Source: Peptococcaceae bacterium
Lineage (GTDB): Bacteria; Bacillota; Dehalobacteriia; UBA4068; UBA4997
Length of the DNA stretch: 64,000 nucleotides
Reading direction: 5' to 3'
NCBI GenBank assembly: GCA_022797295.1
Contig: JAAWKH010000004.1
Location: forward strand, 3,888-67,887
Shown one piece after another: positions 640 through 16,073 of the stretch. The notes beneath the pieces were generated by a model that saw only the letters and a list, made by a program, of their open reading frames with translations, was not told where the DNA came from and searched no databases. How positions within the stretch are numbered: the first letter of the stretch is position 1; each line of letters opens with the position of its first letter. The translations under genes and the position numbers were made by a program.

Positions 640-957
640 ATGAATAAAGAGAAAAAACATCATTTACATATTGAACTAACAGAACAGCAGTATGAATTAC
701 GGAAGAATAATTGTAAGGCTAGTGGTTTATCTATGCGATTGTATCTTGCCAGATTGCTTGAGGGGGTACCGATAAAATCAAGGCCGAGTGCAGAAATTAG
801 AGAGCTTCGAACTTAAGTTCATAAGATAGGCTTAAATATTAATCAGATTGCTCGCAGTATCAATGCGGGACAGGACTCGCCGGAATTGGCGCAAAGGGCA
901 TTATTTCTGCTGGGTAAGGTGTATGAGATGATGTATGAGATAGCTAAACATAGGTAA
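640..957 (+). pseudogene. MobC-like relaxosome accessory protein gene, interrupted by one in-frame TAA (814-816).
   Basis: The N-terminal part reads HIELTEQQYELRKNNCKASGLSMRLYLARLL (RHH-like). After the TAA the same frame continues VHKIGLNINQIARSINAG...YEIAKHR, which matches the MobC hallmark IGnNlNQIAR. An RBS-like aaaaagggtga precedes ATG 640. No relaxase gene follows. Confidence 0.7.
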
Positions 958-1133: not shown

Positions 1134-3527
1134 TTGAACTTTATGGGTGGTAATATGGCGTTGAAAATTCCTTGGGAGCAGGAAGAAGCAGTAATATTAC
1201 TGGATGCTCTTTTAAAAGTGAGAAACGGTGATATAACTCGTAAAGAAGCTGTCGCTAATGTGTCTAATGAGTTACGCCAAAGAGCCATAAATAAGGGAAT
1301 TAAAATAGATGATATTTTTCGTAATATAAATGGCATTGGTTTGCAGATGTCTTTCATGGAATATATTATAACTGATGGAAAGCAAGGAATGCCTCAAGCA
1401 TCTAAACTGTTTAAGGAAACAATTAAATTATATAATGAAAAGAAAAATGAATTTGAAAAAATCTTAATCGAGGCGAAGCAAAATTTAAGTTCCGATTCTA
1501 ATAATGAACACAATATAAAAAATGTTAAAACTTTAGCCAGCAAACAAAAATTGTCTGGAGAAAATATAAAGGCTAGACGTATGGCTTTTAAAAATTGGTT
1601 GAAAAGTAATTGCTCATCTGAGTCTAGTATATCCAATTATGCATTTGCATTAAATGCTGCATTTGTTTTAGAACAGTGTGGGGCATTAGCGATGCGGCTT
1701 TCTTTGGTGGACAGAAATTTGTTTTTTATTGAAGATATTGATGAATTACGAAATATCAGAACAGGCTTGTTAATAAATCAGATAAAAGATAAACCAAGTG
1801 ATAAATTTATCTCTGTTTTAAATAAGTATATTGAATTTTGTAATGGTGGAGAACCTGAATATTTTGAAAAAATAAATCTTGCTGAGCAAACAGATCACAT
1901 TGATGGTACAATATTAGAGGAAAATAAAAAAACAATATATGATAATAATACGCAGTTGGCTTCTGAATTGCAAGAGCCTGTAACTGAACAGGCGCAGGTT
2001 GAATATGAGGAAGAAATAGAACAACAAAATATTAATGATCTTCAAACTGATAATAATATTTTGGATATTGTGGAATCAGATTACAATGTGCCTGAAGAAA
2101 ATGACTTTGGCTTTGAAATAATTCTTAAAGAAGATTTTCCTAATGGTTTTAGAATGAATTCTGCCATTGACAAGAATCGTTTCAGAAAGTTTTTTTCTGA
2201 ACGTTTTGCTTCGGATTTGCTAGAATCAGATGAATATATAGTTGAACAACTTGAGAAAATTGGTGTGCAGCGAGAAGGACGCATTTTTATTAAAAATGAT
2301 TCAGAACAACAGAAAATAATTCATTGTATTATTGATGATTTGACTAAGGCGTTTGATGATGGTGCAACTTGTGTATATATTGAAGCAATTTGGAAGCGTT
2401 ATCAAAATTCTTTATCTGATAATCTTTGTATATATAATATTGAAGCGCTGACGGATTTGTTAAAAAAGGAATTGCAAGATAAATATTCTTTCTTTTATAA
2501 CAAATATTTCTGTGTTTATAATAGACAAGCGGATACTTATCAAGATGTATTGAACTGTTTAAAAAAATATAGTGTACCTGTATCATATGAAACTTTATTT
2601 GAAAATCTTTGGTATTTGCCATCAGATAAAATTAAACAGATTTTAGCGTCAAATAAAATTTTTGTTTGTACTTCAAGAGGACACTATTTTTATGCTCCTA
2701 ATTTACCTGTTAGTTATGGAGAACTGGAGCAGATTTCGGATATTATTTCTGCTGAATTAACTAACAGAAGTTATATCAGTGATGTAGAAATGTACAGTCT
2801 GCTGCAAGAAAAATGTCCTATGGTGTTAATTAACACAGAGGAATTCTCGATGCCAGCCTTACGTAATGTTTTAGGATATTTGTTAAGTGATACATTTTCA
2901 TTCAATGGTAAAATAATAACCTTAAAAGATAAGCAGATTAGTTTATCGGATGTGTTTGCAGAGTTCTGTCATTTACATAAAATGCTAACTTTAAGTGAAA
3001 TAAAAGATTTTGCACAGGAACTGGATACAACTATTAATTGGAATATATGGAATACAATTAGGCAAAATATGGTGCGTATTTCTGAAACAGAGTTTGTGCA
3101 ATTTGATAATGTGAATTTTGATGTATCACTAATTGATAAAATGTTAGAATCAATTTGTCAACATGAGTATGTGCCAATTCAAAGTGTTGGCTTATTTATG
3201 CATTTTCCAGCCATTGGTATACAATGGAATAGCTATGTTTTAGAAAGCTATGTTTATGTTTTGAGTAAAAGTTTTTGTCTAATTAATGCTGGTTTTGTTG
3301 AGCATGGTTGCTATGGCGCTATTGTACGTAAAAACTCTATATTTGTTGACTATCAAAAATTAGTTGTTGATGCACTGGCTCATTCTCAACAATGGAATAC
3401 AAGCAAAGAGGCTTTAGAGTTTTTAATTCAAGAGGGTTATCAATCTAGTCGACGTTTTTCTAATATTGATAATGTTATAAAAGAGGCTAAACTTTTGCGT
3501 GAGCAATTAAACAAGTCTAAGGAATGA
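1134..3527 (+). CDS. Hypothetical 797-aa protein, first gene of the BREX-like operon. No catalytic motif recognised.
   Basis: Long ORF in an AT-rich context. Alternative ATG starts at 1143 and 1155. The stop lies 10 nt before the next gene. It has an N-terminal helical module (WEQEEAVILLDALL...FRNINGIGLQMSFMEY), an acidic linker at about 1970-2100, and no P-loop. Confidence 0.8.
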   Translation: MNFMGGNMALKIPWEQEEAVILLDALLKVRNGDITRKEAVANVSNELRQRAINKGIKIDDIFRNINGIGLQMSFMEYIITDGKQGMPQASKLFKETIKLYNEKKNEFEKILIEAKQNLSSDSNNEHNIKNVKTLASKQKLSGENIKARRMAFKNWLKSNCSSESSISNYAFALNAAFVLEQCGALAMRLSLVDRNLFFIEDIDELRNIRTGLLINQIKDKPSDKFISVLNKYIEFCNGGEPEYFEKINLAEQTDHIDGTILEENKKTIYDNNTQLASELQEPVTEQAQVEYEEEIEQQNINDLQTDNNILDIVESDYNVPEENDFGFEIILKEDFPNGFRMNSAIDKNRFRKFFSERFASDLLESDEYIVEQLEKIGVQREGRIFIKNDSEQQKIIHCIIDDLTKAFDDGATCVYIEAIWKRYQNSLSDNLCIYNIEALTDLLKKELQDKYSFFYNKYFCVYNRQADTYQDVLNCLKKYSVPVSYETLFENLWYLPSDKIKQILASNKIFVCTSRGHYFYAPNLPVSYGELEQISDIISAELTNRSYISDVEMYSLLQEKCPMVLINTEEFSMPALRNVLGYLLSDTFSFNGKIITLKDKQISLSDVFAEFCHLHKMLTLSEIKDFAQELDTTINWNIWNTIRQNMVRISETEFVQFDNVNFDVSLIDKMLESICQHEYVPIQSVGLFMHFPAIGIQWNSYVLESYVYVLSKSFCLINAGFVEHGCYGAIVRKNSIFVDYQKLVVDALAHSQQWNTSKEALEFLIQEGYQSSRRFSNIDNVIKEAKLLREQLNKSKE

Positions 3528-3537
3528 GGATAAATTC

Positions 3538-5898
3538 GTGTACAAATATACTTGGGATGAAGAAACTGGCGGTTTGCTTTTGCTTCCTGAAATATCAAGA
3601 TTTAGCAATGAACCACGACCAGTTTACTACAAAGAATTAGATGCTTTGGGATTTGATAAATTTTGGAACTATCCCAAAGATGATAAATTGCCTTTAATGT
3701 GGGCTGAAGCTAATAATTATATTTATAAAGGACAAATAGTTGCCAAGACTAAGGGAGGTGCCTTATATACTTCACCTGAAATAATACTTTTAGATAAGCC
3801 TGAACCTGATGGTATTGAATTGAAATTTGTAGATATTGACAGAATGATTGAAAAAAATAGAATAATTATGGAGGAATTAGTTCAGGAAACTATTCAGAAA
3901 GTTTATAATACCTATAAAAAATATAAAAATAAGGTTGATGTGTTTTATGTTGCTTTTAGTGGTGGTAAGGATAGCGTTGTTGCTCTTGATATAGTGCAAC
4001 GTGCTTTGCCGCATGATGATTTTATAGTATTGTTTGCTGATACTCAAATGGAATTTATAGATACATATAATGTTGTAAATCAAATTGAATTTTGGTGTCA
4101 AATAAATTGTATACAATTTTTTACTGTCAAGTCGCAATATAATCCGAATTACACCTGGAATCTTATTGGACCTCCTGCTCAAAAGATGCGTTGGTGCTGT
4201 GGTGTACATAAAACTGTGCCACAAATATTATTTTTGCGAACATTAACAAATAAATTAAATTTTAGGGGTATGGCTTTAATGGGAGTACGTTCTGATGAAA
4301 GTGTAACTCGAGGACGATACAACGAATTAAATTATTCTACAAAGCATAAGGGACAGTATGATTTTTATCCGATATTTAATTGGAGTTCAGCGGAGTTATT
4401 TATATATATTTTTCAAAATAAGCTAATTATTAACGAAACATATAAATCTGGCAATAGTCGTGCTGGTTGCTTGGTTTGCCCAATGGAGGCTTCAAAAAAC
4501 ACTTGGTTTAAGGAGCAATTGTATAAGGGGAGGGCACATGATTGTCGTACAACTACATTTTTTAATAAAATAATCATAGAACAAACAGTTGCATCAAATT
4601 TAGACCAAGAGCACCTTAAAGAATTTATGAATATTGGAGTTTGGAAGTCTAGGCATAATGGTAGTAAATTATTAACACAACACAGTATTTTTCATGAAGA
4701 AAAAATTGATAATAATGTAATGATAACATTAGATTATATATCTGTAGACTGGAGAGAATGGCTAAAAACTATAGGTCAACTAAATTTTTTATCAAATAAT
4801 ATTGTTAAAATTTTTATTGATTCAAATTGTTATATTTTGGAGTATGATTATGCAAATCAAAAGCATATTTTTACAGTTAGAAATATTGGACACACACAGA
4901 AAGATATATATTTTATTTCGTGGTTAAAAATTATTCTAAAAAAATCAGCGTATTGTATTAAATGTCAGATATGTGAAGCAAATTGTCCTAATGGATATAT
5001 TCATATGAGTGGCAATAAATTTTACATTGATGATAAATGTACAAAATGCAAACAATGTTATGATGTTAATGGTGGATGTGTAGTGGCTGCTTCACAATAT
5101 ATACCAAAGGGGGTAAATAAAATGAATGGTAGCATTGATCAGTATAAAAATATGGGAATTAGATATTCTTGGGTTGTTGAATACTTGGAGAAAGGTGATG
5201 ACTTTTGGAGTGATAACAACTTGGGAAGTGAAATGCAAAAGTCGTTAAAAAGGTTCTTAGGTCATGCTGGAATTTCTGAAAAAAATACTATAACTATATT
5301 CGGGAAGGTAATTTTTTCATTAAAGCATAATTCAACAATTATCTGGGCGCTTATGCTTTGTAACTTAGTTTATACATCGCAGTTTAATTGGTGGGTAATG
5401 AATATACAACAAAACAGAATATATTTACAAGAAGAATTGAACGAAATGCTTAAAGATACACTTACTGATAATCAAAGAAAGAATGTTTTATCTGGATTTA
5501 AAAATATTTTCTTTACTAATAATATATTAAGTCAGGAAATTGGTTTTGGTATAGTTACTGTTCTGGAAAAAGAACGAAATTCTTTTTTGGTTGATGCTAA
5601 AAGAAAACCTTGGGATAACCCCGACCCACGTGTTATTTTATATTCATTGTATAAGTTTGCCGAGGCTTGTGGGGATTACTATCAATTTTCCTTGTCAACT
5701 TTGCTTGATGATACTATTGAGCGTGATGGAGTTAGCCCTACTCGCATTTTTGGCTTAAACCGAGAAACAATGGTGCCAATTTTGAATGGGCTTGCTGTTA
5801 ATTACCCGGAATTTATTTCAGCAAGTTTTTCTCTTGGTTTGGAAACTATTGATTTGTATGCAGATAAAACTGCTCAAGATGTACTGACATTATTTTAA
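3538..5898 (+). CDS. brxP: BrxP-like protein: PAPS-reductase/DndC-type PP-loop domain, a ferredoxin-type double Cys motif, and a C-terminal region resembling DUF4007 (SspB-like, tentative).
   Basis: GTG start preceded by gagga. PP-loop VAFSGGKDSVVALD. Additional Cys pairs WCCG and GCLVCP. CIKCQICEANCP...CTKCKQCYDVNGGC at 4954-5079. Position immediately upstream of brxC-pglZ. Confidence 0.85.
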   Translation: MYKYTWDEETGGLLLLPEISRFSNEPRPVYYKELDALGFDKFWNYPKDDKLPLMWAEANNYIYKGQIVAKTKGGALYTSPEIILLDKPEPDGIELKFVDIDRMIEKNRIIMEELVQETIQKVYNTYKKYKNKVDVFYVAFSGGKDSVVALDIVQRALPHDDFIVLFADTQMEFIDTYNVVNQIEFWCQINCIQFFTVKSQYNPNYTWNLIGPPAQKMRWCCGVHKTVPQILFLRTLTNKLNFRGMALMGVRSDESVTRGRYNELNYSTKHKGQYDFYPIFNWSSAELFIYIFQNKLIINETYKSGNSRAGCLVCPMEASKNTWFKEQLYKGRAHDCRTTTFFNKIIIEQTVASNLDQEHLKEFMNIGVWKSRHNGSKLLTQHSIFHEEKIDNNVMITLDYISVDWREWLKTIGQLNFLSNNIVKIFIDSNCYILEYDYANQKHIFTVRNIGHTQKDIYFISWLKIILKKSAYCIKCQICEANCPNGYIHMSGNKFYIDDKCTKCKQCYDVNGGCVVAASQYIPKGVNKMNGSIDQYKNMGIRYSWVVEYLEKGDDFWSDNNLGSEMQKSLKRFLGHAGISEKNTITIFGKVIFSLKHNSTIIWALMLCNLVYTSQFNWWVMNIQQNRIYLQEELNEMLKDTLTDNQRKNVLSGFKNIFFTNNILSQEIGFGIVTVLEKERNSFLVDAKRKPWDNPDPRVILYSLYKFAEACGDYYQFSLSTLLDDTIERDGVSPTRIFGLNRETMVPILNGLAVNYPEFISASFSLGLETIDLYADKTAQDVLTLF

Positions 5899-5911
5899 AA
5901 GAGGTGTCAAA

Positions 5912-6685
5912 ATGAATCACGAAACATATCAAGATTATTTTAACATTGATCCTAAATATTATGCGGCTGTTACAGCTGACTTAATTAAAAGCGGTAAGGT
6001 TAAATGGACAGCCTTTTATCCACATGAAACTTTTGTGCGTTTACTTGAAAAAACGCATATTATGTTATCTGGCAAGGATTCTCGCTCACTTTGGGTTGAA
6101 GGTGCCTATGGAACGGGTAAATCTCACGCAGCTTTAACTGTTAAATCTTTGTTGGAAGCTAGCGATGATGAAATACAAGCTTATTTTGATGATTATGGTT
6201 TAAATAAGGATTTATGTCAGCAGCTTATCACTGATAAAAATAATGGTAAACTAATTACCATTCATCGTATTGGGACAGCTTCTATTCGTTCTGATCAGGA
6301 TTTAATTTTGGCAATACAAGATAGTGTGATTGATGCGTTACATAAGCATGGCATTGAGAACCGTGGTGAAGCCTCGTTAAAAGATGCCGCACTTAAATGG
6401 TTTGATGAAAAGGAAGCTAATCGAACTTATTTTGACAGCCTAATAAAAGAAGAAAAGTATATGTGGGAGTTTGGTGGCAAAACAGTTTTGGAGGTTATCG
6501 ACACCTTAAAAAATGGTAATGCTGATGTTGTTGCTAAATTAATGCGTAATATATTGCGTGTGGCAGAGGATAATGGCATAACAGCTTTGCGTTTGGACGT
6601 TCCCGCTTTGTGTGAATGGATTAAAAGCGTTATTGATGATAATGATATTTCGGCTATTTTATTTGTTTGGGATGAATTTACATAA
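5912..6685 (+). CDS. brxC: BrxC/PglY-like P-loop ATPase, N-terminal fragment (gene interrupted by an in-frame TAA at 6683-6685).
   Basis: RBS agaggtg. Walker A GAYGTGKSH. Walker B ILFVWDEF immediately before the stop. The reading frame continues open in the same frame after the TAA. Confidence 0.85.
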   Translation: MNHETYQDYFNIDPKYYAAVTADLIKSGKVKWTAFYPHETFVRLLEKTHIMLSGKDSRSLWVEGAYGTGKSHAALTVKSLLEASDDEIQAYFDDYGLNKDLCQQLITDKNNGKLITIHRIGTASIRSDQDLILAIQDSVIDALHKHGIENRGEASLKDAALKWFDEKEANRTYFDSLIKEEKYMWEFGGKTVLEVIDTLKNGNADVVAKLMRNILRVAEDNGITALRLDVPALCEWIKSVIDDNDISAILFVWDEFT

Positions 6686-6763
6686 TATTTTATTAATAAT
6701 CAGAATTCGCTTACAGGCTTTCAGGGATTAGCTGAAGTTAGTCAATCTCATCCCTTTTATTTT

Positions 6764-9700
6764 TTGATTGTAACGCATGAAAGTCAATCTTTGATTGAAG
6801 ATAAAGATAAGCGAAAGAAAATTCTGGATCGTTTTGTAGGTGGTGGTACAGTACGCATTGAAATGCCAGAAAATATGGCTTTCCGTTTAATGTCTAAGGC
6901 AATGAAAACAACGTCTGACCCTGTGCTGTTGCCTAAATGGCAGGAATACAAAGCAGATTTAAATGATAATTTAACAGATGTGCGCAATAATATTACTTCA
7001 CACGCTAAAAAAAATGCAACTATGGGTCAGAAAACTGTAATATCTGATGAGGAATTACAGAATATTGTACCCATTCATCCTTATGCAGCACTTTTGTTGA
7101 AGCATATGTCAGTTGCTTTTAATTCAAATGCTAGAAGTATGTTTGACTTTATTATTAGTAATGACATGACAGAGGCTAAAGGGTTTAAGTGGTTTATTAG
7201 TAATTATGGGCCTCTTGATGACCCAAATTTGTTAACAGTGGATATGCTATGGGACTTCTTTAATGGTAAAGATCAAACAGGGCTTAATGATGATGTTAGG
7301 GTTATTCTGGATTCATTTGGTTTGCTAAAAGCTGGAAGCTTAACACCTGAACAAGTGCGTGTATTTAAAACTATATTGCTGTTGGAAGCTATATCAGTTA
7401 GAGTGAATAGTGTGGAATTGTTGCGGCCAAATGAGCAGAACATTGATTTAGCCTTTTTAGGTACAGATTGGAATAAAGGAAAAGCTCGCAGTATTGCAGC
7501 AGGTCTTTGTCAACAGGGATTGCTATTTGAAAAGCCAGTTGGCAATGGTATGAAAGAGTATACAGTAGCAAATAATGGCGGTAACAAAGCTAAAATTGAA
7601 CAATATAAGGAAGAAATACGAAAAAGCACGAGGACTTTAGATTTAGTTGTATCTGCAGATTTGTTAAGCGCTTTGCAACTGACGGATTCTATACGAGGCC
7701 GTTATATAATGGAAGCTGCTTCATCTGCAAATTTCACACAGGCTAGTAATAAATTTAATTCTGTTAACAAACCTAATAGATTTAAGATACTTGTTACCTT
7801 TGCATTGAATGATAACGAATCTGCAAAACTTAAAGAGCTTAACAACAAAGCCATTCTGCAATCAGATAATGAGCTGTATTATATTGAATGTTTAACACAA
7901 ATGGGTAATGATTTATATGAGCAATATGTTGAAAATATGGCTTATAGCAAAAATTATGCTCAAAATGATAAACAACGTGCAGTTGGTTTTGAAAATCAGG
8001 CTCGGAAGTGTCTGATTGAATGGCAGCAAAAAATTGTCAATGGTGCTTTTATGTTGTATACGCTTGATAATAAAAGTGGTATTCGTTTGGCAAATTTTCA
8101 AGCATTACAAGAAGAACTACAGAAAATCAATCGGCAAAAATATCCATATAGCCTTGAACAATACAATTTGACAAGTACGATGTTTACCAAAGGGCCACTT
8201 GCTCAGGGGGCAGAGTGTGGTATCAATCAGGAGTTAAAGCAGTCTTTTAAATCATCTAATGTTAATACGAGCTTGTCTACTGCTTTGGCTGGTGCTTGGC
8301 AAGTAGAAAAATATTGGGAGGATTCGACAAAACAAAGCTTGCCTATTGTACATATAAAAAATGAAGTTGAGCGTCTTGTGCAGGATGGTTTTAATAAAGG
8401 TTCTGGACGAGTTAGCGTTCTATCTATTTTTGAGGCTCTGGAACAGCCTAAATATGGTTTTATGCCCAATAATGTTGCAGCTTTCATATTAGGCTTTGTT
8501 TTGAAAGAGTATGCAACTTCGGATTATTATTGGAGTAATGGTTCTAATAGCGATGTGATGAGTCCTGATAAGATGAAAGCAATGATTGCCAATGCAATCA
8601 ATCAAAAGGTATCACCATCAGCTAAATATAAAGAAGAATACATTGTTGCGATGAGTGTTGAACAAAGGGCATTTTTGCAATGTGCAGCCAATGTTTTCCA
8701 GATTCCAACAACTCAATGTGATTCAGTAGAAAGAGCCAGAGATCAGATAAGAATTAAAATGAAGGGCTTGATGTTTCCTATCTGGTGTTTAAAATACATT
8801 TTAGATTCCTCAACCTTGCAATCATCAAAAGAGCATATATCTAAAATAATTGATGCGTATTGTGGAATTGCTAATACCGCCAATGGTTATAGAGATACTG
8901 AAAGCGAGTTGGCGGAAGATATAGGAAAACTCGTTTGTGAACATCCATCTATAACGCAGGATTTGGTTAATTTATTTACAAATGAAAACTGTCGTAAAGG
9001 CATGTTGGCATATATTGATATTTTTCAAGGAGGTATATTGCCTAAACTAGCTGCAGAGATCAATGATAACGGTATTTATTTAGATGAAGTAAAACGAAAA
9101 TTTAATGCTGATGCAGCAAACTGGGTTTGGAGTTCAGATACTGCAGATGAAAAAATTTCTGATGTAATTTTGGAATATCATATTATTGCTGAAAGTAATA
9201 AAAGTTTGCCAATAAAGAGTAATACTCTGAATGATATAGTAAGAGAATGGAATAAGCGTACTAATAATATTAAAATGCCGTATGATGAATTACACAAATA
9301 TACTGGGGATTTCAGCGGTTTTTTGAAACAGTTATATTATATAAAACAGTCTGGTCAAATTCAGGAACAAAATAAGCCTAAATTTTATGAGTTACTTGTA
9401 ACACAGCGTGAGAATTTTGATTGTTTTTACAAAGAGCAGCTACCTTATTTTAAACAGCTAGCAAAAGGTTTTATTGATGATTTAGATGAAGAAACTATTG
9501 CCGATTTTTATACTAAATTACCATCAGGTCAATTTACAAAATCAATTAGTGAATATTATCAGTTTTTAGAAAATCAACTTGATATTTATAAAAAAGGGTT
9601 GGTTAAAGAGCGTTTGAAAACATTATGGCTAGATAGGACGTGTACTAAAGATCCTGAGGATTGGTCAGAGCGTTACGAAACTCCAATTTTGTGTATGTTT

Positions 9701-10135
9701 GATGATTCAGAGCGTGGCGAAGCTAAAACAATATTTGATATAGTGTTGGCTTATTCTTCGTCTGACGCTGATTTGCAGAAGGCTATAGATTATTTGAAAA
9801 GGGCAACATTTTATGAACGCTTAAATAATCCTACTGAGCGTGACCGTTGTTTTAATGAACGGATTATTGGTGAATATTCAGTTATGTTAAAGTCCGTTGA
9901 TGAGGTACGCAAAAATTTATTATCATATATTCCTGATAAACCATATAACTGGATGGATAATTCTGCTGTGCAAAACCGTTTACGTATGTTGGCTGAAAAA
10001 CAGTATAAATTAAATGGTTATGAACAGGCGCAAGCTGTTATTGACCATATGGATGCGGAACAATTGCGTCATTATTTGAATGAGTTAATATCTGATAACC
10101 TTACTGTTGGTTTGGAAATTTTGAAAAACAGCTAA
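6764..10135 (+). CDS. brxC: BrxC/PglY-like ATPase, C-terminal fragment. It is in the same frame as 5912-6685, and that frame is open from 6686.
   Basis: Frame 2 reads ...VWDEFT*YFINNQNSLTGFQGLAEVSQSHPFYFLIVTHESQ... with a single stop. The combined length of about 1400 codons and the position before pglZ fit BrxC. Confidence 0.8.
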   Translation: MIVTHESQSLIEDKDKRKKILDRFVGGGTVRIEMPENMAFRLMSKAMKTTSDPVLLPKWQEYKADLNDNLTDVRNNITSHAKKNATMGQKTVISDEELQNIVPIHPYAALLLKHMSVAFNSNARSMFDFIISNDMTEAKGFKWFISNYGPLDDPNLLTVDMLWDFFNGKDQTGLNDDVRVILDSFGLLKAGSLTPEQVRVFKTILLLEAISVRVNSVELLRPNEQNIDLAFLGTDWNKGKARSIAAGLCQQGLLFEKPVGNGMKEYTVANNGGNKAKIEQYKEEIRKSTRTLDLVVSADLLSALQLTDSIRGRYIMEAASSANFTQASNKFNSVNKPNRFKILVTFALNDNESAKLKELNNKAILQSDNELYYIECLTQMGNDLYEQYVENMAYSKNYAQNDKQRAVGFENQARKCLIEWQQKIVNGAFMLYTLDNKSGIRLANFQALQEELQKINRQKYPYSLEQYNLTSTMFTKGPLAQGAECGINQELKQSFKSSNVNTSLSTALAGAWQVEKYWEDSTKQSLPIVHIKNEVERLVQDGFNKGSGRVSVLSIFEALEQPKYGFMPNNVAAFILGFVLKEYATSDYYWSNGSNSDVMSPDKMKAMIANAINQKVSPSAKYKEEYIVAMSVEQRAFLQCAANVFQIPTTQCDSVERARDQIRIKMKGLMFPIWCLKYILDSSTLQSSKEHISKIIDAYCGIANTANGYRDTESELAEDIGKLVCEHPSITQDLVNLFTNENCRKGMLAYIDIFQGGILPKLAAEINDNGIYLDEVKRKFNADAANWVWSSDTADEKISDVILEYHIIAESNKSLPIKSNTLNDIVREWNKRTNNIKMPYDELHKYTGDFSGFLKQLYYIKQSGQIQEQNKPKFYELLVTQRENFDCFYKEQLPYFKQLAKGFIDDLDEETIADFYTKLPSGQFTKSISEYYQFLENQLDIYKKGLVKERLKTLWLDRTCTKDPEDWSERYETPILCMFDDSERGEAKTIFDIVLAYSSSDADLQKAIDYLKRATFYERLNNPTERDRCFNERIIGEYSVMLKSVDEVRKNLLSYIPDKPYNWMDNSAVQNRLRMLAEKQYKLNGYEQAQAVIDHMDAEQLRHYLNELISDNLTVGLEILKNS

Positions 10136-10144
10136 GGAGATATT

Positions 10145-12472
10145 ATGAATTGTAATAATATAAACGAATGTTTTGAACAAATTAATGCTTATTTTCAGGC
10201 CGAAAAACTTGGCTTACCATTAATTGTTAATGCTGAAAATGATAATGATTATCGAGAAATTATTCAGCTTTTGGAAGCAGACCATACCAAAAAGAAAATA
10301 TATGTATCAAACTATTGTTTCCCTAATGGTTTACCAGATGTTGATTCAGCGCTTGCTCAATTTTCTGATGATAAAAATGTTTTTATAGGTTTAGCTCAAG
10401 CGCTAATGTTTAGAAGTGCTAAAGATTTGGCAATTAAACTTGATGAAGTGTTGAGTTTATCAATTAGTGGATATGCGTTGATTATATTATATCGTTGCGA
10501 GCAGGTTTTACAGGATATTATGCGAAAAAGTAAAGATGAGCGTTTATCAGATCGCATAGCATTTGTTTTAGGAGATAAGTCTGCTTTGCCACAAATCAAA
10601 TTCATCAATAATGAAGTTGAAGCATCTGGTTATAATGTTTTTTCTAAGTTTAGTGACATACTGTCTGCTTTAGAACATATGCAGATAGATGGAGATACTT
10701 TATTCCTTTTAACTTCATTTTCACCCGATGTTTTTAGAAATTCTCTTTATCCAATATCAATAGCGCCTGATATTTATACAAGGTTGACAAAAAAATATTC
10801 AGATATTGCTAGTGCTGTTGATAAAAGCTATGCTACTTCTGAGCAATGGTGTTGGTTGGAGAAAAAAATGCACTCACATAATAGTTTCTCTGAACTTGTG
10901 TGTGCGAACTTTGGTAGCATTCATAATTTATCAATACATCTTATGGATATATTCGATAAAAATGATAAAAATCTACAATGGCTACATTGGTTGGCAATGA
11001 AGGTATTTGGTGAAAGTAATAATAAATATTTGACTTTAGCACTACGCAACTGTAATAATTTTGAAGATTTTAAAATTCATCTTTATTTAGATTTAATTGA
11101 CGTGGATATTGATGATGCTGATTTTGAAAAGTTATATCTCGAACGAAAGCGACTCTTGGCAATTATGCCTGAAAATATATCATTGGTAAAGAAATATTGT
11201 GATCGCTTAGGGCGTTATCAAAAAAATGCTATATTATATTTAACAGATAATACAGATATAGAAAAACACGAATTTTTGCAGTGTCTTAGCATATATGATT
11301 ATACGGAAAGTGAGTTAAATCAGGCTATTCAGAGATTATCTAAGCCTTTGACTTTATATATGCAACCATTTGTTTTTGATAATATTAATACTCGCTTATC
11401 TGATAAGGATGACTATTTAAGACCAGAGCTAACGAGGTATTTTCATAATTATAAAATACAGAAGTTAACAAATCGTTTGCAGTCTGGTTTTGTGGCTCAG
11501 GTCCAAAAATATGCATTAGATCGACCTTATAATAAATTGCAATCACGAAGTAGTATTATTTCACATATGGATAGAAAAGGTGCACAAGTATTCTTTTTTG
11601 ATGCGTTAGGTGTTGAGTATCTATCTTTTATATTGGCAAAATGCAAAGAATATGATTTAGTTTATGAGCTTTCTATTGGTCGTTGTGAGTTGCCATCAAT
11701 TACAACAAAAAACAAGGAATTTTTGCAATATTTTGCAGAAAATGCCTGTAACAAAATTGATGGCTTGGATGAATTGAAACACCATAGTGAAGTTTTCGAT
11801 TATGAAAAATGTAAGTTACCGTTACACTTGTTTGTTGAACTGGATATAATCGATGAAGAGTTGCGTAAAATTCAATCTCAGCTTGTTCAGGGAACAATAG
11901 AAAGGGCTATTATAGTAGCAGATCATGGGGCTAGTAGATTGGCGGTGCTTTATGGCAAGGAAAATGAAGCTTTGCCTAAAATATCTGATGGTACAGAGCA
12001 TAGTGGTCGTTGTTGTTTAGCTGAAAAAGATCCTGGTATAGAATACGCTGCCTATGATGATGGTTATGTTATACTAGCAAATTATGAACGTTTTAAGGGA
12101 GGACGTCGTGCTAATGTTGAGGTGCATGGTGGTGCATCGTTAGAAGAGGTTTTGGTACCTGTTATTACTTTAACAAGACAGCCAGAAAATGTTGAAATTT
12201 GTTTTGTTGATTCAACAATTATATTACGTCCTCGTGAAATCCCTGTTTTAGTTTTGTATTCTAGTATTCCTCTGCAAAAACCAAGACTTAAAATAAATGA
12301 TGAATTTATTGAGGGTGAATTTGTGGCAGATGCAAAGCATGCCAAATTCGAATTACCAAAAGTTAAACGTAAAGGTATATATCGTGCAGAGGTTTATGAT
12401 GGAGAAAAGAATATGTCTGTAAATTTAAGTTTTACTGCTCAAAAACAAACAAGAGAAATAGATTTGTTGTAA
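10145..12472 (+). CDS. pglZ: PglZ-domain protein (alkaline-phosphatase superfamily, BREX core component).
   Basis: RBS aaggag. Motifs VFFFDALGVEYLSF, CELPSITTKNK, IIVADHGASRL and NVEVHGGASLEEVLVPVI. Confidence 0.9.
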   Translation: MNCNNINECFEQINAYFQAEKLGLPLIVNAENDNDYREIIQLLEADHTKKKIYVSNYCFPNGLPDVDSALAQFSDDKNVFIGLAQALMFRSAKDLAIKLDEVLSLSISGYALIILYRCEQVLQDIMRKSKDERLSDRIAFVLGDKSALPQIKFINNEVEASGYNVFSKFSDILSALEHMQIDGDTLFLLTSFSPDVFRNSLYPISIAPDIYTRLTKKYSDIASAVDKSYATSEQWCWLEKKMHSHNSFSELVCANFGSIHNLSIHLMDIFDKNDKNLQWLHWLAMKVFGESNNKYLTLALRNCNNFEDFKIHLYLDLIDVDIDDADFEKLYLERKRLLAIMPENISLVKKYCDRLGRYQKNAILYLTDNTDIEKHEFLQCLSIYDYTESELNQAIQRLSKPLTLYMQPFVFDNINTRLSDKDDYLRPELTRYFHNYKIQKLTNRLQSGFVAQVQKYALDRPYNKLQSRSSIISHMDRKGAQVFFFDALGVEYLSFILAKCKEYDLVYELSIGRCELPSITTKNKEFLQYFAENACNKIDGLDELKHHSEVFDYEKCKLPLHLFVELDIIDEELRKIQSQLVQGTIERAIIVADHGASRLAVLYGKENEALPKISDGTEHSGRCCLAEKDPGIEYAAYDDGYVILANYERFKGGRRANVEVHGGASLEEVLVPVITLTRQPENVEICFVDSTIILRPREIPVLVLYSSIPLQKPRLKINDEFIEGEFVADAKHAKFELPKVKRKGIYRAEVYDGEKNMSVNLSFTAQKQTREIDLL

Positions 12473-12494
12473 GTTTTAAGAATGGAGTAGATAT

Positions 12495-13961
12495 ATGAAT
12501 GGATTACAGTCATCAGAAATGATTGAAAGATTGAAAGATAGCTTTGATGAAATGGTTGTTTATAAGGATTTACAGAAGAGTAACTTTATTTCATCTTTCA
12601 AGTTACCGTCATTTATGCGAGATTGGGTACTAAAGCGTTTTCAGGATGACGATGGTGAGATTGATGTTGAAGGAGCAACAGATTTTATCAAAGAGTTTAT
12701 TCCTAAAAAAGAAGATTGGAAAGCTATTATGAATCGTATTGTTCAATATCAGGAACAAGTACGTTTCTTAGCCAAAGTTTCAGTTAATATTGACATTAAA
12801 ACGCAGGGCGTATCTTTCTCATTACCAGATTTTGGTCTTTCTTTTAAAGATACTATTATATCAAGAGATGTTTGGGAAATGTGCAGTGCTTCATTATTAA
12901 AAGCAGAAGAAAACTGGGGTATTGTAGAATTAGGATATCAATTTCCGGAAAATGATAGAACTTCTGGTAAAATCAAATTAATTAACTTTCAAGATTTTTG
13001 TCCATACATTATTGACTTGGATGAGTTTAGATATGCCAGAGAATCCTTTACTTTAAATGAGTGGATTGATATTATTTTGGGAGCCATTGATTATAATGCG
13101 GCTGGTTACGAAACACAAAAACAAAAGTTAGCCATGATTACGCGTCTACTTCCTTTTGTTGAGAAAAGATTAAATATGATTGAATTGGCACCTAAAGGAA
13201 CAGGTAAATCTTATTTATTTGGTTCGGTTAGTCGCTATGGTTGGCTGTCATCAGGTGGAACAATGTCAAGAGCAAAAATGTTTTATGATGTGGCAAGACG
13301 CACAGAAGGACTTGTTTTTGGTCATGACTATGTAGCGTTAGATGAAGTACAAACCATTAATTTTACGGATGTTGATGAAATGCGTGGTGCATTAAAAGGC
13401 TATATGGAAAATGGTAAATACACTGTTGGTAATCATGAGGGAGCAGCAGATTCAGGTATAATCCTTTTAGGCAATATTCCGGCCAATTCGATGAATGAAT
13501 ATGGGAATATGTTTGTGGAATTGCCAAATGTTTTTCATGAAAGCGCCTTAATTGATCGTTTCCATGGGTTCTTAAAAGGATGGGATTTGCCTCGCATGAA
13601 TGATGATTTAAAAATTTGTGGTTGGGCTTTAAATTCAGAGTATTTTTCAACTATTATGCATGAATTGCGTGATGATCCAACTTATCGTGCTGTTGTTGAT
13701 TCTTTGGTAATAGTACCGGAAAAGTCTGATACGAGAGATACTGAGGCAATAAAAAGAATATGTACGGCCTATTTGAAATTGTTATTTCCAAATGTTCAAT
13801 GTGTTGAAGATATTGTGGCAGCTGACTTTAATAAATACTGTTTACAGCCAGCTAAAGAAATGCGAGCAATTATAAAAATGCAGCTTAGTATTCTTGACCC
13901 GGATGAGTTTGGCGGTAAAACTGTTCCTGATTTAACAATAACGGATATTGAGGATTTTTAA
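12495..13961 (+). CDS. brxL: Short BrxL-like AAA+ ATPase (TIGR02688-like, from memory). No Lon-protease C-terminal domain is evident.
   Basis: The N-terminus, VVYKDLQKSNFISSFKLPSFMRDWVLKRF, resembles the BrxL N-domain. Walker A ELAPKGTGKSYLF. Walker B YVALDEVQ. 488 aa. Position after pglZ. Confidence 0.75.
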   Translation: MNGLQSSEMIERLKDSFDEMVVYKDLQKSNFISSFKLPSFMRDWVLKRFQDDDGEIDVEGATDFIKEFIPKKEDWKAIMNRIVQYQEQVRFLAKVSVNIDIKTQGVSFSLPDFGLSFKDTIISRDVWEMCSASLLKAEENWGIVELGYQFPENDRTSGKIKLINFQDFCPYIIDLDEFRYARESFTLNEWIDIILGAIDYNAAGYETQKQKLAMITRLLPFVEKRLNMIELAPKGTGKSYLFGSVSRYGWLSSGGTMSRAKMFYDVARRTEGLVFGHDYVALDEVQTINFTDVDEMRGALKGYMENGKYTVGNHEGAADSGIILLGNIPANSMNEYGNMFVELPNVFHESALIDRFHGFLKGWDLPRMNDDLKICGWALNSEYFSTIMHELRDDPTYRAVVDSLVIVPEKSDTRDTEAIKRICTAYLKLLFPNVQCVEDIVAADFNKYCLQPAKEMRAIIKMQLSILDPDEFGGKTVPDLTITDIEDF

Positions 13962-13964
13962 AAG

Positions 13965-14165
13965 ATGTTCAATAATTATTGTGTGTCATGTGGCAAACAA
14001 CCATTATCTAAGGATGAATTAGGTATTTGTAAGAAACTATTGGGCGAAGATATTATATCTTTTTATTGTTTGGATTGTCTAGCGGATTTCTTAGAAGTTT
14101 CCTTAGAGGATATTATAGCTAAAATAGAAGAATTCAAAGAAGATGGTTGTGTGCTTTTTAAATAA
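13965..14165 (+). CDS. Small Cys-rich (CxxC...CxxC...C) zinc-ribbon-like protein.
   Basis: 66 aa, with CVSCGK, a single C, CLDC and GCVLF. It starts 3 nt after the brxL-like stop and ends 10 nt before the desulfurase start. Confidence 0.6.
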   Translation: MFNNYCVSCGKQPLSKDELGICKKLLGEDIISFYCLDCLADFLEVSLEDIIAKIEEFKEDGCVLFK

Positions 14166-14175
14166 GGAGTCAAAG

Positions 14176-15297
14176 ATGATTTATGCAGATAATGCTGCAA
14201 CAACTAAATTAGATAAAGATGCTTACGAAGCAATGTTACCGTTTTTGTTGAATGAATATGCTAATGCTTCGCAACCCTATTCGTTTTCTCGTAAAACTAA
14301 AGCAGCATTAAAAAAGGCAAGACAGATGATTGCAGATTGTATAAATGCATTGCCGGAAGAGATTTACTTTACATCTGGTGGTACGGAAAGTGATAATTGG
14401 GCTATAAAAGGTTTGGCATTTGCAGATAAAGAAAAACGAGCAATGATAACATCTGCTTTTGAGCATCATGCTGTTTTGAATTCCTGTGCTGCTATAGAGT
14501 ATCTTGGATATCCTGTTGCATATATGTGGCCTACAAAGGCAGGTTTAATAAAAGCAGATATTTTAGAAAAGTATATAACTAATACAACTCGTCTTGTGTC
14601 TGTTATGTTTGCAAATAATGAAATTGGTACAGTTCAGCCAATAAAGGAATTGTCTACAATGGCTCATTCTTATGGTGCATTATTTCATACAGACGCTGTA
14701 CAAGCAGTGGGGCATATACCTATTGATGTACAGGATTTAGGTGTTGATATGTTGTCTGCTTCGGCACATAAGTTTAATGGTCCAAAAGGTGTAGGTTTTC
14801 TATATATTCGAAATGGAACGTCAATTTGTTCATATTTAAATGGTGGTTCTCAGGAATTTACAATGCGAGCAGGTACTGAGAATGTGGCAGGGATTGTAGG
14901 TATGGCAGTTGCTTTACAAAAAAACTGCGAGAATATAAAGAATAATATTGCTCACTTATATAATTTGGAAAGAATAATTGTTGAACGACTAAATAAGTGC
15001 GGTATCGATTATATTCGTAACGGAATCGAAAATGGGCTTCCTGGTCTGTTGAGTTTATCATTTAAAGGCTGTTCTGGAGAGCAATTACTACATCGTTTAG
15101 ATTTACAGGGAATTGAAATTTCCACTGGCTCTGCCTGTAATAGTGTGAAAACAGAAATTTCTCATGTTTTAACTGCAATTGGTTTGGAAGATAACTACGC
15201 AAAAGGAACTATTAGAATCTCTTTTGGAAAGGACAATAAATGCAGTGACGCTGAAAAAATAATCAATGAGTTAATACATGTTATTCATGCTCTTTAA
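14176..15297 (+). CDS. Cysteine desulfurase, NifS/IscS class-V aminotransferase family (analogue of DndA/SspA by context).
   Basis: ATG 14176 is preceded by aaggag. Motifs IYADNAATT, FTSGGTESDN, the PLP-Lys motif SASAHKFNGPKGVGFLY, the active-site loop STGSACNS, and GTIRISFG. AT-rich like the rest of the operon. Confidence 0.9.
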   Translation: MIYADNAATTKLDKDAYEAMLPFLLNEYANASQPYSFSRKTKAALKKARQMIADCINALPEEIYFTSGGTESDNWAIKGLAFADKEKRAMITSAFEHHAVLNSCAAIEYLGYPVAYMWPTKAGLIKADILEKYITNTTRLVSVMFANNEIGTVQPIKELSTMAHSYGALFHTDAVQAVGHIPIDVQDLGVDMLSASAHKFNGPKGVGFLYIRNGTSICSYLNGGSQEFTMRAGTENVAGIVGMAVALQKNCENIKNNIAHLYNLERIIVERLNKCGIDYIRNGIENGLPGLLSLSFKGCSGEQLLHRLDLQGIEISTGSACNSVKTEISHVLTAIGLEDNYAKGTIRISFGKDNKCSDAEKIINELIHVIHAL

Positions 15298-15344
15298 TCT
15301 AAAATTTTTGAGAATAAAAATATAGCGGTATTTTATTCATTTTA

Positions 15345-15386
15345 CCTATGTAAACACTTGACGAAATTGTTTACATAGGTTTTTTG
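15345..15386 (+). terminator. Intrinsic terminator closing the BREX-like operon.
   Basis: Perfect 12-bp stem, cctatgtaaaca (15345-15356) with tgtttacatagg (15368-15379), followed by tttttt. Confidence 0.8.
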
Positions 15387-15869: not shown

Positions 15870-16073
15870 ATGTTTGAAAAATATCCAGACGTAGTTTCCG
15901 TACCGGAGCTATGCAAAATGCTGGGCGGTATCAGCAAAAAGCTGGCCTATAAAATGCTGGCTAATGGCGAGATCTTTAGTGTCAGGGTTGGCCGCTCATA
16001 TAAAATACCCAAGGTGAGCGTTATCGCCTATCTAACAGGAAATGTGCTGCCTGATAAAAATAAGACTGCTTAG
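15870..16073 (+). CDS. xis: Excisionase-family helix-turn-helix DNA-binding protein.
   Basis: 67 aa with VSVPELCKMLGGISKKLAYKMLANGEIFSVRVGRSYKIPKVSVIAYL, typical of the MerR-like excisionase family. It lies immediately upstream of int. Confidence 0.8.
   Translation: MFEKYPDVVSVPELCKMLGGISKKLAYKMLANGEIFSVRVGRSYKIPKVSVIAYLTGNVLPDKNKTA

What the first reader, a model, noticed from the sequence alone, without database searches (positions are those of the whole stretch)
1134..15297. AT-rich 14-kb operon: type-4-BREX-like core (brxP-brxC-pglZ-brxL-like) with its own cysteine desulfurase and no methyltransferase, a candidate sulfur-based BREX/Dnd-Ssp hybrid defence system
Seen: seven co-directional reading frames lie at 1134-3527, 3538-5898, 5912-10135 (one in-frame stop), 10145-12472, 12495-13961, 13965-14165 and 14176-15297. 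They are separated by only 3-22 nt and closed by a strong hairpin plus T-tract at 15345-15386. They are visibly far more AT-rich than the chromosome right of 17.5 kb (not computed). Motifs read from the translations are as follows. ORF2 has the PP-loop FSGGKDS. ORF3 has Walker A GAYGTGKSH and Walker B VWDEF. ORF4 has FFFDALGVEY, ELPSITT, VADHGASR and HGGASLEEVLVPV (PglZ signature). ORF5 has APKGTGKSY and VALDEVQ. ORF7 has SAHKFNGPKG (PLP lysine) and STGSACNS (active-site Cys). Established: brxP-brxC-pglZ-brxL is the defining layout of type 4 BREX in the Goldfarb et al. 2015 classification, a BREX type without the PglX methyltransferase. A cysteine desulfurase plus a PAPS-reductase-like ATP pyrophosphatase plus a large ATPase is the core logic of Dnd (DndA/C/D) and Ssp (SspA/D/C) DNA phosphorothioation. 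Inference: the two logics are physically fused here in one operon. The self-mark of this BREX variant is therefore probably a sulfur-containing DNA modification, with PglZ, the BrxL-like ATPase and ORF1 as the sensing or restriction arm. ORF1, the Cys-rich mini-protein and the desulfurase are not part of the canonical four-gene description. I am not aware of experimental characterisation of this combination.
Basis: partly seen in the sequence, partly recalled or inferred. Interest (0 to 1): 0.88.

Follow-up and report, generated by a model that had tools for sequence, protein, structure and literature searches.

The report
Phosphorothioate-type (type 4) BREX operon
This is a real seven-gene type 4 BREX phage-defence operon that marks DNA with sulfur, a kind published in 2024-2026, here with its key ATPase gene broken by a stop codon and led by a conserved, still unnamed DNA-binding-like gene.

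Summary
Seven co-directional, tightly packed genes lie at 1134-15297. They have 32.8% GC against 52.1% for the chromosome. All cited motifs are present, there is one in-frame TAA in brxC, and a hairpin terminator closes the operon.

Profile searches identify BrxP, BrxC, BREX-4 PglZ, short BrxL and an IscS/NifS/DndA-like cysteine desulfurase.

Yuan et al. (bioRxiv 2024, Nat Commun 2026) showed that type 4 BREX brxP and brxC make phosphorothioate DNA. [quoted passage not shown] So this is the standard build of the system and not a new hybrid.

In 89 PglZ-centred loci the same seven-gene order occurs in 56 of the 57 loci I could assess on both sides.

Three things remain of interest:
- ORF1 belongs to a large family called only "hypothetical". 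It is a tandem winged-helix array and always sits directly upstream of brxP. I did not find it described as a BREX-4 component.
- The centre of brxP is swapped between otherwise near-identical operons.
- This clone carries a genuine brxC nonsense mutation (E258*), identical in six independent assemblies, so sulfur marking is probably off here.

The operon is cargo of an island integrated at tRNA-Ser.

The parts
640..957 (+). NikA/MobC-like mobilisation gene of the island, with an in-frame TAA at 814-816 (context only, not part of BREX)
   Evidence: NikA-like 1.5e-06 for 640-813 and MobC 5.7e-07 for 817-957. Sequence. The intact 126-aa homologue sits in the same position in L001.
1155..3527 (+). 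ORF1: leader gene of the operon, 790 aa from the ATG at 1155 (797 aa from the TTG at 1134). It has a helical N-terminal domain, a disordered acidic linker and a C-terminal module of about 470 aa made of 5-6 tandem winged-helix domains.
   Evidence: No Pfam, PADLOC, NCBIfam or PDB sequence hit. AF2 model of the C-module: pLDDT 94.2, pTM 0.80. Foldseek returns only tandem winged-helix arrays. Homologues lie directly upstream of brxP in 61 of 61 assessable PglZ-centred loci and in the ORF1-selected genome loci.
3538..5898 (+). brxP: PP-loop PAPS-reductase-like sulfurtransferase with a ferredoxin-type Cys cluster and a DUF4007/SspB-like C-terminal region
   Evidence: PDLC02510 2.9e-221 over the full length; PAPS_reduct residues 138-315; Fer4 residues 468-510; PDLC02511 residues 534-740. 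FSGGKDS at residue 140.
5912..10135 (+). brxC/pglY-type P-loop ATPase (SspC-like), 1407 codons, interrupted by TAA at 6683-6685 (E258*)
   Evidence: PDLC02485 4.2e-49 (N-terminal part) and 7.3e-181 (C-terminal part). Homologues have GAA or GAG at this codon. The same stop occurs in six independent assemblies that are 100% identical to the window.
10145..12472 (+). pglZ, type 4 form: DUF7864 + DUF7863 + alkaline-phosphatase-type core + DUF7862
   Evidence: NF033445 BREX_PglZ_4 2.3e-126, 423 bits against a cut-off of 140; PDLC02554 5.9e-86; Pfam DUF7864, DUF7863 and DUF7862.
12495..13961 (+). brxL, short form (488 aa, ATPase without the Lon-like C-terminal domain)
   Evidence: BrxL_ATPase 9.9e-111; BrxL_N 3.6e-28; TIGR02688 407 bits against a cut-off of 329; PDLC02505 2e-215.
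13965..14165 (+). 66-aa Cys-rich mini-protein: CxxC...CxxC zinc-ribbon-like part, a helical tail, and an invariant Cys62 in the sequence GCxLF
   Evidence: Present in 74 of 74 assessable loci. Invariant C6, C9, C35, C38 and C62. Only weak zinc-ribbon and HTH-like family matches. Matches the 'small zinc-finger protein' described in PMC12839542.
14176..15297 (+). IscS/NifS/DndA-like class V PLP cysteine desulfurase
   Evidence: Aminotran_5 3.9e-80; PADLOC SspA 8.7e-127 and DndA 1e-126. Below the equivalog cut-offs of NifS, IscS and DndA. PLP-lysine motif at residue 196 and Cys motif at residue 316. Present in 73 of 74 assessable loci.
15344..15386 (+). Intrinsic terminator closing the operon
   Evidence: 16-nt arms followed by TTTTTT; -16.8 kcal/mol, z = -5.2.
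15870..16073 (+). Excisionase-like HTH_17 gene of the island
   Evidence: HTH_17 4.6e-10.
16119..17354 (+). Tyrosine integrase of the island
   Evidence: Phage_integrase 1.6e-22 plus SAM-like N-terminal domains.
17369..17460 (-). tRNA-Ser(CGA): integration site and right border of the AT-rich island
   Evidence: ARAGORN. GC rises from 0.33 to about 0.5 here. Chromosomal genes follow: metA, ABC exporters, priA, ilvD.

Best explanation
Window 1134-15297 is a complete seven-gene type 4 (phosphorothioate-type) BREX operon. It is AT-rich cargo of an integrative, mobilisable island inserted at tRNA-Ser(CGA).

Proposed mechanism for the modification arm:
- The cysteine desulfurase takes sulfur from L-cysteine as a persulfide (family knowledge).
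- BrxP has a PP-loop ATP pyrophosphatase domain, a ferredoxin-type Fe-S region and a DUF4007/SspB-like DNA-binding C-terminus. Together with the P-loop ATPase BrxC it places the sulfur in the DNA backbone at short motifs. The requirement for BrxC, and the sufficiency of a brxP+mcrA+brxC construct, were shown for homologues in Bacteroides. It is inferred here.

Proposed mechanism for the exclusion arm:
- PglZ and the short BrxL act on unmarked incoming DNA (inferred).

Accessory proteins:
- The mini-protein with five invariant cysteines probably works with the desulfurase, either as a sulfur relay or docking factor or as a small regulator (inferred, weak).
- ORF1 is a tandem winged-helix array with a variable N-terminus. 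It is a conserved seventh component, most likely a nucleic-acid-binding sensor, scaffold or regulator (inferred).

Status in this clone: brxC is cut by a nonsense codon (E258*) directly after the Walker B motif. Phosphorothioation, and with it defence, is therefore most likely switched off.
For: - Family assignments come from three profile libraries.
- No methyltransferase is present in the island part of the window.
- The operon is tightly packed and ends in a single terminator.
- Published genetics: deleting brxC abolishes phosphorothioate, and brxP+mcrA+brxC reconstitute it in a host that has its own SufS. mcrA, brxZ and brxL are dispensable for modification (PMC12914056).
- The desulfurase occurs in 255 of 457 type 4 taxa, together with a zinc-finger partner (PMC12839542).
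- Conservation of the layout: ORF1 module 61/61, mini-protein 74/74, desulfurase 73/74, all seven genes 56/57. ORF1-selected loci from 80 species across many phyla are followed by brxP-brxC-pglZ-brxL wherever the contig reaches far enough, with one exception, L038.
- ORF1 fold.
- The brxC stop is a G-to-T change of a conserved Glu codon and is present in six independent assemblies.
- Island context: integrase, excisionase-like gene, tRNA-Ser and MobC-like gene.
Against: - Nothing was measured in this organism. Phosphorothioate, its motif and phage protection are all inferred from homologues at 30-60% identity.
- Anti-phage activity of desulfurase-containing type 4 systems has not been reported in the papers I read. 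Yuan et al. say it 'awaits investigation'.
- The roles given to ORF1 and the mini-protein rest on fold and gene context only.
- A split BrxC (257 aa + 1123 aa) or stop-codon read-through could keep some activity.
- The clone with the stop is widespread (its BrxL protein occurs in 87 blocks of the collection). That would be a little unexpected for a useless 14-kb operon, although every copy I read (six loci) is 100% identical to the window, so it may simply be recent.
Confidence: 0.85

Rival explanations
1. The operon is still functional in this clone. The TAA is read through, or the 257-aa Walker A/B fragment and a re-initiated 1123-aa C-terminal fragment assemble into a working split BrxC.
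For: - All six other genes are intact and full length.
- The stop lies at a domain boundary directly after Walker B.
- A TTG at 6764 opens a 1123-aa frame, and public gene callers also call it.
- The clone is found in many samples.
Against: - No Shine-Dalgarno-like sequence precedes the TTG at 6764.
- All examined relatives encode one 1400-1407-aa protein with Glu at this codon.
- A second nonsense mutation, in the island's mobC-like gene, suggests decay.
- All copies are 100% identical, so selection on the fragments cannot be tested.
Confidence: 0.12
2. This is a new hybrid created here by fusing a BREX core with a Dnd/Ssp sulfur module. On this view the desulfurase, mini-protein and ORF1 are recent or accidental neighbours.
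For: The desulfurase scores equally well against the PADLOC SspA and DndA models. The classical four-gene description of type 4 omits these three genes.
Against: - The same seven genes occur in the same order in 56 of 57 assessable loci from metagenomes and IMG/VR, at 27-63% PglZ identity.
- The desulfurase and zinc-finger association is already published.
- BrxP scores only 32-40 bits against the DndC and SspD models, compared with 735 bits for BrxP.
Confidence: 0.02
3. The main role of the system is not phage exclusion. The phosphorothioate marks might serve as an epigenetic or redox-related modification, or in addiction of the mobile island to its host, with PglZ and BrxL acting in that role.
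For: - Yuan et al. report uneven genomic distribution of phosphorothioate, with enrichment in rRNA genes, and oxidation sensitivity.
- They could not obtain a brxP deletion in B. salyersiae.
- The operon travels on an integrative island.
Against: PglZ and BrxL are hallmark BREX defence components. According to Yuan et al., type 4 BREX was reported to have anti-phage activity in their reference 35. Fast evolution of ORF1 and PglZ and the allele swapping in brxP fit an arms race.
Confidence: 0.08

Closest known systems
BREX type 4 (brxP-brxC-pglZ-brxL), as validated in Bacteroides salyersiae DSM18765 (Yuan et al., Nat Commun 2026, PMC12914056) and surveyed by Rakesh & Krishnan (NAR 2026, PMC12839542)
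   Same: It has the same four core genes in the same order and no PglX. The PglZ is of the BREX-4 type and BrxL is the short form. BrxP is a PAPS-reductase fused to a DUF4007-like region with an Fe-S segment. The desulfurase and small zinc-finger protein occur as in 56% of type 4 taxa.
   Different: The B. salyersiae operon carries mcrA and relies on a housekeeping SufS. This operon has its own desulfurase and no McrA-like nuclease. ORF1 is not named as a component in the text of either paper that I could read. It could be the 'unknown Bs02795 gene', but I could not check this. brxC is a pseudogene here.
SspABCD(-SspE/FGH) single-strand DNA phosphorothioation system
   Same: The logic of the modification arm is the same: cysteine desulfurase (SspA-like, 8.7e-127), PAPS-reductase (SspD-like, 1.3e-10), DUF4007/SspB-like region fused into BrxP, and a large P-loop ATPase related to SspC (2.8e-10) (homology stated in PMC12914056).
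   Different: Scores against the Ssp models are weak except for the desulfurase. There is no SspE or SspFGH. The effector arm is PglZ plus BrxL. SspB and SspD are fused in one protein.
DndABCDE-DndFGH phosphorothioation restriction-modification
   Same: A DndA-like desulfurase (1e-126) and a DndC-related PP-loop domain (1e-09) are present.
   Different: There is no DndB, DndD, DndE or DndFGH. BrxP reaches only 32 bits against TIGR03183 DndC (cut-off 290), and the desulfurase reaches 316 bits against TIGR03235 DndA (cut-off 480). Per PMC12839542, BrxP lacks the DndC-specific Cys dyad.
BREX type 1 (brxA-brxB-brxC-pglX-pglZ-brxL)
   Same: BrxC, PglZ and BrxL families are shared. It follows the same 'mark self, exclude non-self' logic.
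   Different: The mark is N6-adenine methylation by PglX. BrxL is long, with a Lon-like domain. BrxA and BrxB are separate genes, whereas PMC12839542 places their counterparts inside BrxP (DUF4007) and PglZ (iSTAND) in type 4.

Membership tests
BREX type 4 | brxP encoding a PAPS-reductase-domain protein | tested here: met
   PDLC02510 2.9e-221 over residues 1-785; PF01507 2.7e-25, 89.8 bits against a cut-off of 22.5.
BREX type 4 | brxC/pglY P-loop ATPase adjacent to brxP | tested here: met
   PDLC02485 matches both halves (4.2e-49 and 7.3e-181) with Walker A and Walker B present. The gene is interrupted by TAA at 6683-6685.
BREX type 4 | pglZ of the type 4 clade | tested here: met
   NF033445 BREX_PglZ_4, 423 bits against a cut-off of 140. 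The Pfam PF08665 model itself gave no hit at E <= 0.01.
BREX type 4 | brxL present | tested here: met
   TIGR02688, 407 bits against a cut-off of 329; Pfam BrxL_ATPase 9.9e-111.
BREX type 4 | No PglX methyltransferase in the operon | tested here: met
   No methyltransferase family was found among the ORFs of 1-17.5 kb. The island continues to the left beyond the window, and that part was not seen.
BREX type 4 | Phosphorothioate modification of host DNA that depends on brxP and brxC | not testable with these tools
   Shown for homologues (PMC12914056). Here brxC is a nonsense allele, so the prediction is that the mark is absent.
BREX type 4 | Protection against phage | not testable with these tools
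   Needs plaque assays.
Ssp (SspABCD) | Separate SspB, SspC and SspD proteins that reach family-level scores | tested here: not met
   SspD 39.5 bits and SspC at most 36.6 bits, against 735 and 602 bits for the BrxP and BrxC models. The SspB-like part is fused into BrxP.
Ssp (SspABCD) | PT-sensing effector SspE or SspFGH | tested here: not met
   No PADLOC hit to these families among the nine proteins scanned.
Dnd (DndABCDE) | DndC equivalog | tested here: not met
   TIGR03183, 32.1 bits against a cut-off of 290.4.
Dnd (DndABCDE) | DndA equivalog cysteine desulfurase | tested here: not met
   TIGR03235, 316 bits against a cut-off of 480. NifS (TIGR03402) scores 424 bits against 531. It is an IscS/NifS-type desulfurase but reaches no curated equivalog cut-off.
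Dnd (DndABCDE) | DndB, DndD, DndE and DndFGH present | tested here: not met
   No hits.
tRNA-integrated mobilisable genomic island (context) | Tyrosine integrase next to a tRNA gene, an excisionase-like gene, a mobilisation gene and deviant base composition | tested here: met
   Integrase 16119-17354; tRNA-Ser 17369-17460; HTH_17 gene; NikA/MobC-like pseudogene; GC 0.33 against 0.52. The left end and the att repeat lie outside the window.

The most novel reading that the evidence does not exclude
The ORF1 family is an unrecognised, near-obligatory component of phosphorothioate-type BREX. It consists of 5-6 tandem winged-helix domains behind a hypervariable N-terminus and is always encoded directly upstream of brxP. 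On this reading it acts as the DNA- or invader-sensing or specificity-coupling subunit that links phosphorothioate status to the PglZ/BrxL effector arm. In addition, recombinational swapping of the brxP core between otherwise near-identical operons re-programmes the phosphorothioate motif, much as specificity-subunit shuffling does in type I restriction-modification systems.
Probability: 0.3. Interest if true: 0.55.

Novelty: new member of a known kind. Interest (0 to 1): 0.33.

Why it matters
The headline idea, a BREX that marks self DNA with sulfur in place of a methyl group, is already established. This locus therefore does not open a new question. Three smaller points remain useful.

1. 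The survey shows that the working unit in this clade has seven genes and not four. One gene family, ORF1, has roughly 2000 clusters at 50% identity and is annotated only as hypothetical. If ORF1 is needed for defence, reconstitutions with brxPCZL alone would miss it.

2. brxP alleles that are about 52% identical sit inside operons that are 77-99% identical. These offer a natural experiment on which protein sets the phosphorothioate motif, a question that Yuan et al. left open.

3. A widespread clone with a natural brxC-null allele, together with intact close relatives, gives a ready-made comparison for studying the cost and benefit of phosphorothioation in a gut bacterium.

Tried and rejected
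- ORF1 as a known family. There were no hits in Pfam (whole protein and five segments, up to E = 5), PADLOC, NCBIfam or PHROGs (one 0.007 match of unknown function). PDB sequence searches with a single sequence and with a 26-sequence profile also found nothing.
- ORF1 C-module as a paralogue of the DUF4007-like C-terminus of BrxP. hhalign gave probability 1.1%, so I rejected this.
- ORF1 as a nuclease. I saw no catalytic motif by eye, and Foldseek found only winged-helix arrays with a pLDDT 94 model. The global TM-scores are low (<= 0.2), so the match is at the level of domains and not of the whole architecture.
- Mini-protein identity. Only sub-threshold matches to zinc-ribbon families (DUF2197, Lar) and a NirDL-like HTH.
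- brxC stop as an assembly error. Rejected, because six independent assemblies carry it.
- Host identification. An exact look-up of the window's IlvD found nothing. The genome-contig scan returned no locus closer than 43% ORF1 identity.
- att repeat of the island. No copy of the tRNA end occurs within 1-18.5 kb. The left border is outside the window.
- Goldfarb et al. 2015 could not be opened. What I say about it rests on my own knowledge and on how Yuan et al. cite it.
- The gene-neighbourhood supplement of the NAR paper is not held as text. I could not check whether ORF1 appears there unlabelled.

Full report
**1. Observation**

The gaps between them are 3-22 nt, and a Shine-Dalgarno-like stretch precedes each of the six genes from brxP onward. 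The third frame has 1408 codons and one internal TAA at 6683-6685. All eleven quoted motifs were found at the expected residues. GC is 32.8% across the operon and 52.1% to the right of 17.5 kb. The hairpin at 15344-15380 plus TTTTTT folds at -16.8 kcal/mol with z = -5.2. ORF1 most likely starts at the ATG at 1155, because close homologues begin MALKIPWEQ.

**2. Identity of the genes**

Three profile libraries agree.
- ORF2 is BrxP. PADLOC PDLC02510 gives 2.9e-221 over the full length. PAPS_reduct covers residues 138-315, a ferredoxin-type Cys cluster covers 468-510, and a second BrxP model covers 534-740.
- ORF3 is BrxC. PDLC02485 matches on both sides of the stop.
- ORF4 is the type 4 PglZ (NF033445, 423 bits against a cut-off of 140).
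- ORF5 is the short BrxL (TIGR02688, 407 bits against 329).
- ORF7 is an IscS/NifS/DndA-like cysteine desulfurase. Aminotran_5 gives 3.9e-80 and PADLOC SspA and DndA give about 1e-126. It falls below every curated equivalog cut-off.
- ORF1 and the 66-aa protein match nothing at family level.
- No methyltransferase is present.

**3. What is already known**

Yuan et al. (bioRxiv June 2024; Nat Commun 2026, PMC12914056) showed that type 4 BREX makes phosphorothioate DNA. Deleting brxC in Bacteroides salyersiae abolishes the mark. Expression of brxP+mcrA+brxC reconstitutes it in B. thetaiotaomicron, which supplies SufS. mcrA, brxZ, brxL and an unknown gene are dispensable for modification.

Rakesh & Krishnan (NAR 2026, PMC12839542) surveyed 457 type 4 taxa. 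They found a cysteine desulfurase in 255 of them (56%) and called it a potential sixth core component. [quoted passage not shown] They also described the Fe-S region of BrxP, DUF4007 as a BrxA homologue, and an inactive STAND domain at the N-terminus of PglZ.

**4. Is the neighbourhood accidental?**

No. I collected loci around PglZ relatives: 80 from metagenomes and 9 from IMG/VR. PglZ identity to the window was 27-63%. I scored all ORFs with the window proteins and with an ORF1 C-module profile. The results were as follows:

| Component | Present / assessable loci |
|---|---|
| ORF1 module directly upstream of brxP | 61 / 61 |
| Mini-protein | 74 / 74 |
| Desulfurase | 73 / 74 |
| All seven genes in order | 56 / 57 |

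I also searched in the other direction. A scan of one genome per species with the ORF1 alignment returned 80 loci. They come from Clostridia, Negativicutes, Bacteroidota, Alphaproteobacteria, Verrucomicrobiota, Planctomycetota, Spirochaetota, Cloacimonadota, Thermotogota and others. In nearly every locus with enough DNA, brxP-brxC-pglZ-brxL follows immediately. The one clear exception is L038.

Denitrovibrio acetiphilus DSM 12809 carries a version with a 515-aa ORF1 that consists of the C-module only. It has the mini-protein, no desulfurase in cis, and a divergent WYL regulator gene.

Both samples favour relatives of this operon. Whether ORF1 is universal in type 4 BREX remains open.

**5. ORF1**

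An exhaustive HMMER search found 2007 cluster representatives with E <= 0.001, of which 796 had E <= 1e-30. They share residues of about 315-790 and have N-termini of very different lengths. The sources that name these proteins call them only hypothetical or uncharacterised.

An AF2 model of the C-module, built from a 65-sequence alignment, reaches pLDDT 94.2 and pTM 0.80. Foldseek against the PDB returns only tandem winged-helix arrays: UFL1, SelB WH1-4, Egalitarian, Dcc1, Rpc5 and ESCRT-II.

One relative fuses the module to three RNA-polymerase alpha-CTD copies, a sigma-70 region 4 and a HARE-HTH. The module is unrelated to the DUF4007-like end of BrxP.

ORF1 is the fastest-evolving gene of the operon. 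Median identities to the window are:

| Protein | Median identity |
|---|---|
| ORF1 C-module | 30% |
| PglZ | 34% |
| BrxC | 42% |
| BrxP | 46% |
| Mini-protein | 59% |
| BrxL | 61% |
| Desulfurase | 61% |

I read ORF1 as a nucleic-acid-binding sensor, scaffold or regulator. This is an inference. I did not find it described as a type 4 component in the text I could read of the two papers. It may be the 'unknown Bs02795 gene' of Yuan et al., which was not needed for modification, but I could not check this.

**6. The mini-protein**

It is strongly conserved. C6, C9, C35, C38 and C62 are invariant, and the last lies in the sequence GCxLF near the C-terminus. Only weak zinc-ribbon and HTH-like similarities were found. 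This fits the description in the NAR paper.

A role as a persulfide relay or desulfurase partner is my speculation. The Denitrovibrio locus keeps the mini-protein without a neighbouring desulfurase. Any such role would therefore have to work with a housekeeping enzyme as well.

**7. State of this copy**

The stop is a G-to-T change of a Glu codon (GAA or GAG in relatives) directly after the Walker B motif. Six independent assemblies are 100% identical to the window over up to 21.5 kb and carry the same stop, so it is not an assembly error. They comprise one JGI metagenome, four NCBI MAGs and one Logan run.

Close relatives have an intact BrxC: 1407 aa in L001 and L183, and Glu at codon 258 in L184. 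Because brxC is required for modification in B. salyersiae, this clone most likely makes no phosphorothioate.

The island's NikA/MobC-like gene also carries an in-frame TAA. This is consistent with decay of the element.

**8. Context**

An excisionase-like gene and a tyrosine integrase follow the terminator. The integrase abuts tRNA-Ser(CGA) at 17369-17460. Ordinary chromosomal genes follow: metA, ABC exporters, priA and ilvD. The left end of the island lies outside the window.

**9. Side observation: brxP alleles**

Among closely related operons the central part of BrxP (about residues 150-700) exists in at least three alleles that are only about 52% identical overall. The BrxP ends, ORF1 (77-95%) and BrxC (91-99%) stay similar. 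This looks like cassette exchange. It could reflect switching of the phosphorothioate motif or escape from phage inhibitors.

**10. Verdict**

This is a real and well-formed member of a known kind of system. What remains of interest is the ORF1 family, the brxP mosaicism and the natural brxC-null clone.

Noticed in passing
window 640-957: The island's NikA/MobC-like mobilisation gene has an in-frame TAA at 814-816. This is a second nonsense mutation in the same island, besides the one in brxC. The homologue in L001 is an intact 126-aa protein.
   Followed up: partly
window 3538-5898 compared with L001:12258-14588, L183:3006-5417 and L184:4521-6932: There are three brxP alleles (786, 776 and 803 aa). 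They are about 52% identical overall, falling to roughly 20-58% between residues 150 and 700. They sit in operons whose ORF1 is 77-95% identical and whose BrxC is 91-99% identical, and the BrxP ends are conserved. This indicates recombinational replacement of the brxP core.
   Followed up: partly
L168-L173 (JGI 3300051405; GCA_948638025.1, GCA_948644105.1, GCA_948478725.1, GCA_948493965.1; SRR11792749): Six independent assemblies are 100% identical to the window over the parts they cover (within 2495-23961), including the brxC stop. The window's BrxL protein is indexed in 87 blocks of the collection. The clone is therefore sampled widely.
   Followed up: yes
L096, L104, L146, L153 (brxC); L097, L103 (pglZ); L178 (brxP): Other metagenomic copies also show split brxC or pglZ frames. 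L178 has an insertion of about 2.9 kb inside brxP. I cannot tell whether these are real inactivations or assembly errors.
   Followed up: no
L106:7126-12535 (- strand): One metagenomic contig carries a second, inverted partial copy (brxC-brxP-ORF1 module) downstream of the desulfurase of a complete operon.
   Followed up: no
L187 (Denitrovibrio acetiphilus DSM 12809, CP001968.1:579889-602138): This cultured organism with a complete genome has a six-gene version: an ORF1 of C-module only (515 aa), brxP, brxC, pglZ, brxL and the mini-protein. There is no desulfurase in cis, and a WYL/WCX (BrxR-like) regulator gene lies divergently upstream. It would be a convenient experimental system.
   Followed up: partly
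protein P0074 (1780 aa): A relative of ORF1 fuses the winged-helix C-module to three RNA-polymerase alpha-CTD domains, a sigma-70 region 4 and a HARE-HTH. Other relatives reach 2088 aa with no recognisable N-terminal domains.
   Followed up: no
window 79-87 (-), 15433-15441 (+), 15583-15591 (+); also 62-81 and 128-147: The G-rich motif GGGAGGGGG occurs only three times in the 64 kb, and all three flank the BREX operon (1 of 100 shuffles gives three or more). A 20-nt direct repeat, TTTAGGGGTTCAATGAACCC, lies at 62 and 128. These could be recombinase or regulator sites, or chance.
   Followed up: no
window 961-1003 and 1024-1065: A 21-nt inverted repeat, probably the terminator of the mobC-like gene, and a 25-nt AT-rich palindrome lie just upstream of ORF1. 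This is where the operon's promoter or operator would be expected.
   Followed up: no
window 2000-2100 (ORF1 residues about 239-314): An acidic, low-complexity linker is predicted to be disordered. It is the most variable stretch of ORF1, only 14% identical between the window and L001 while the flanks are 64-94% identical.
   Followed up: no
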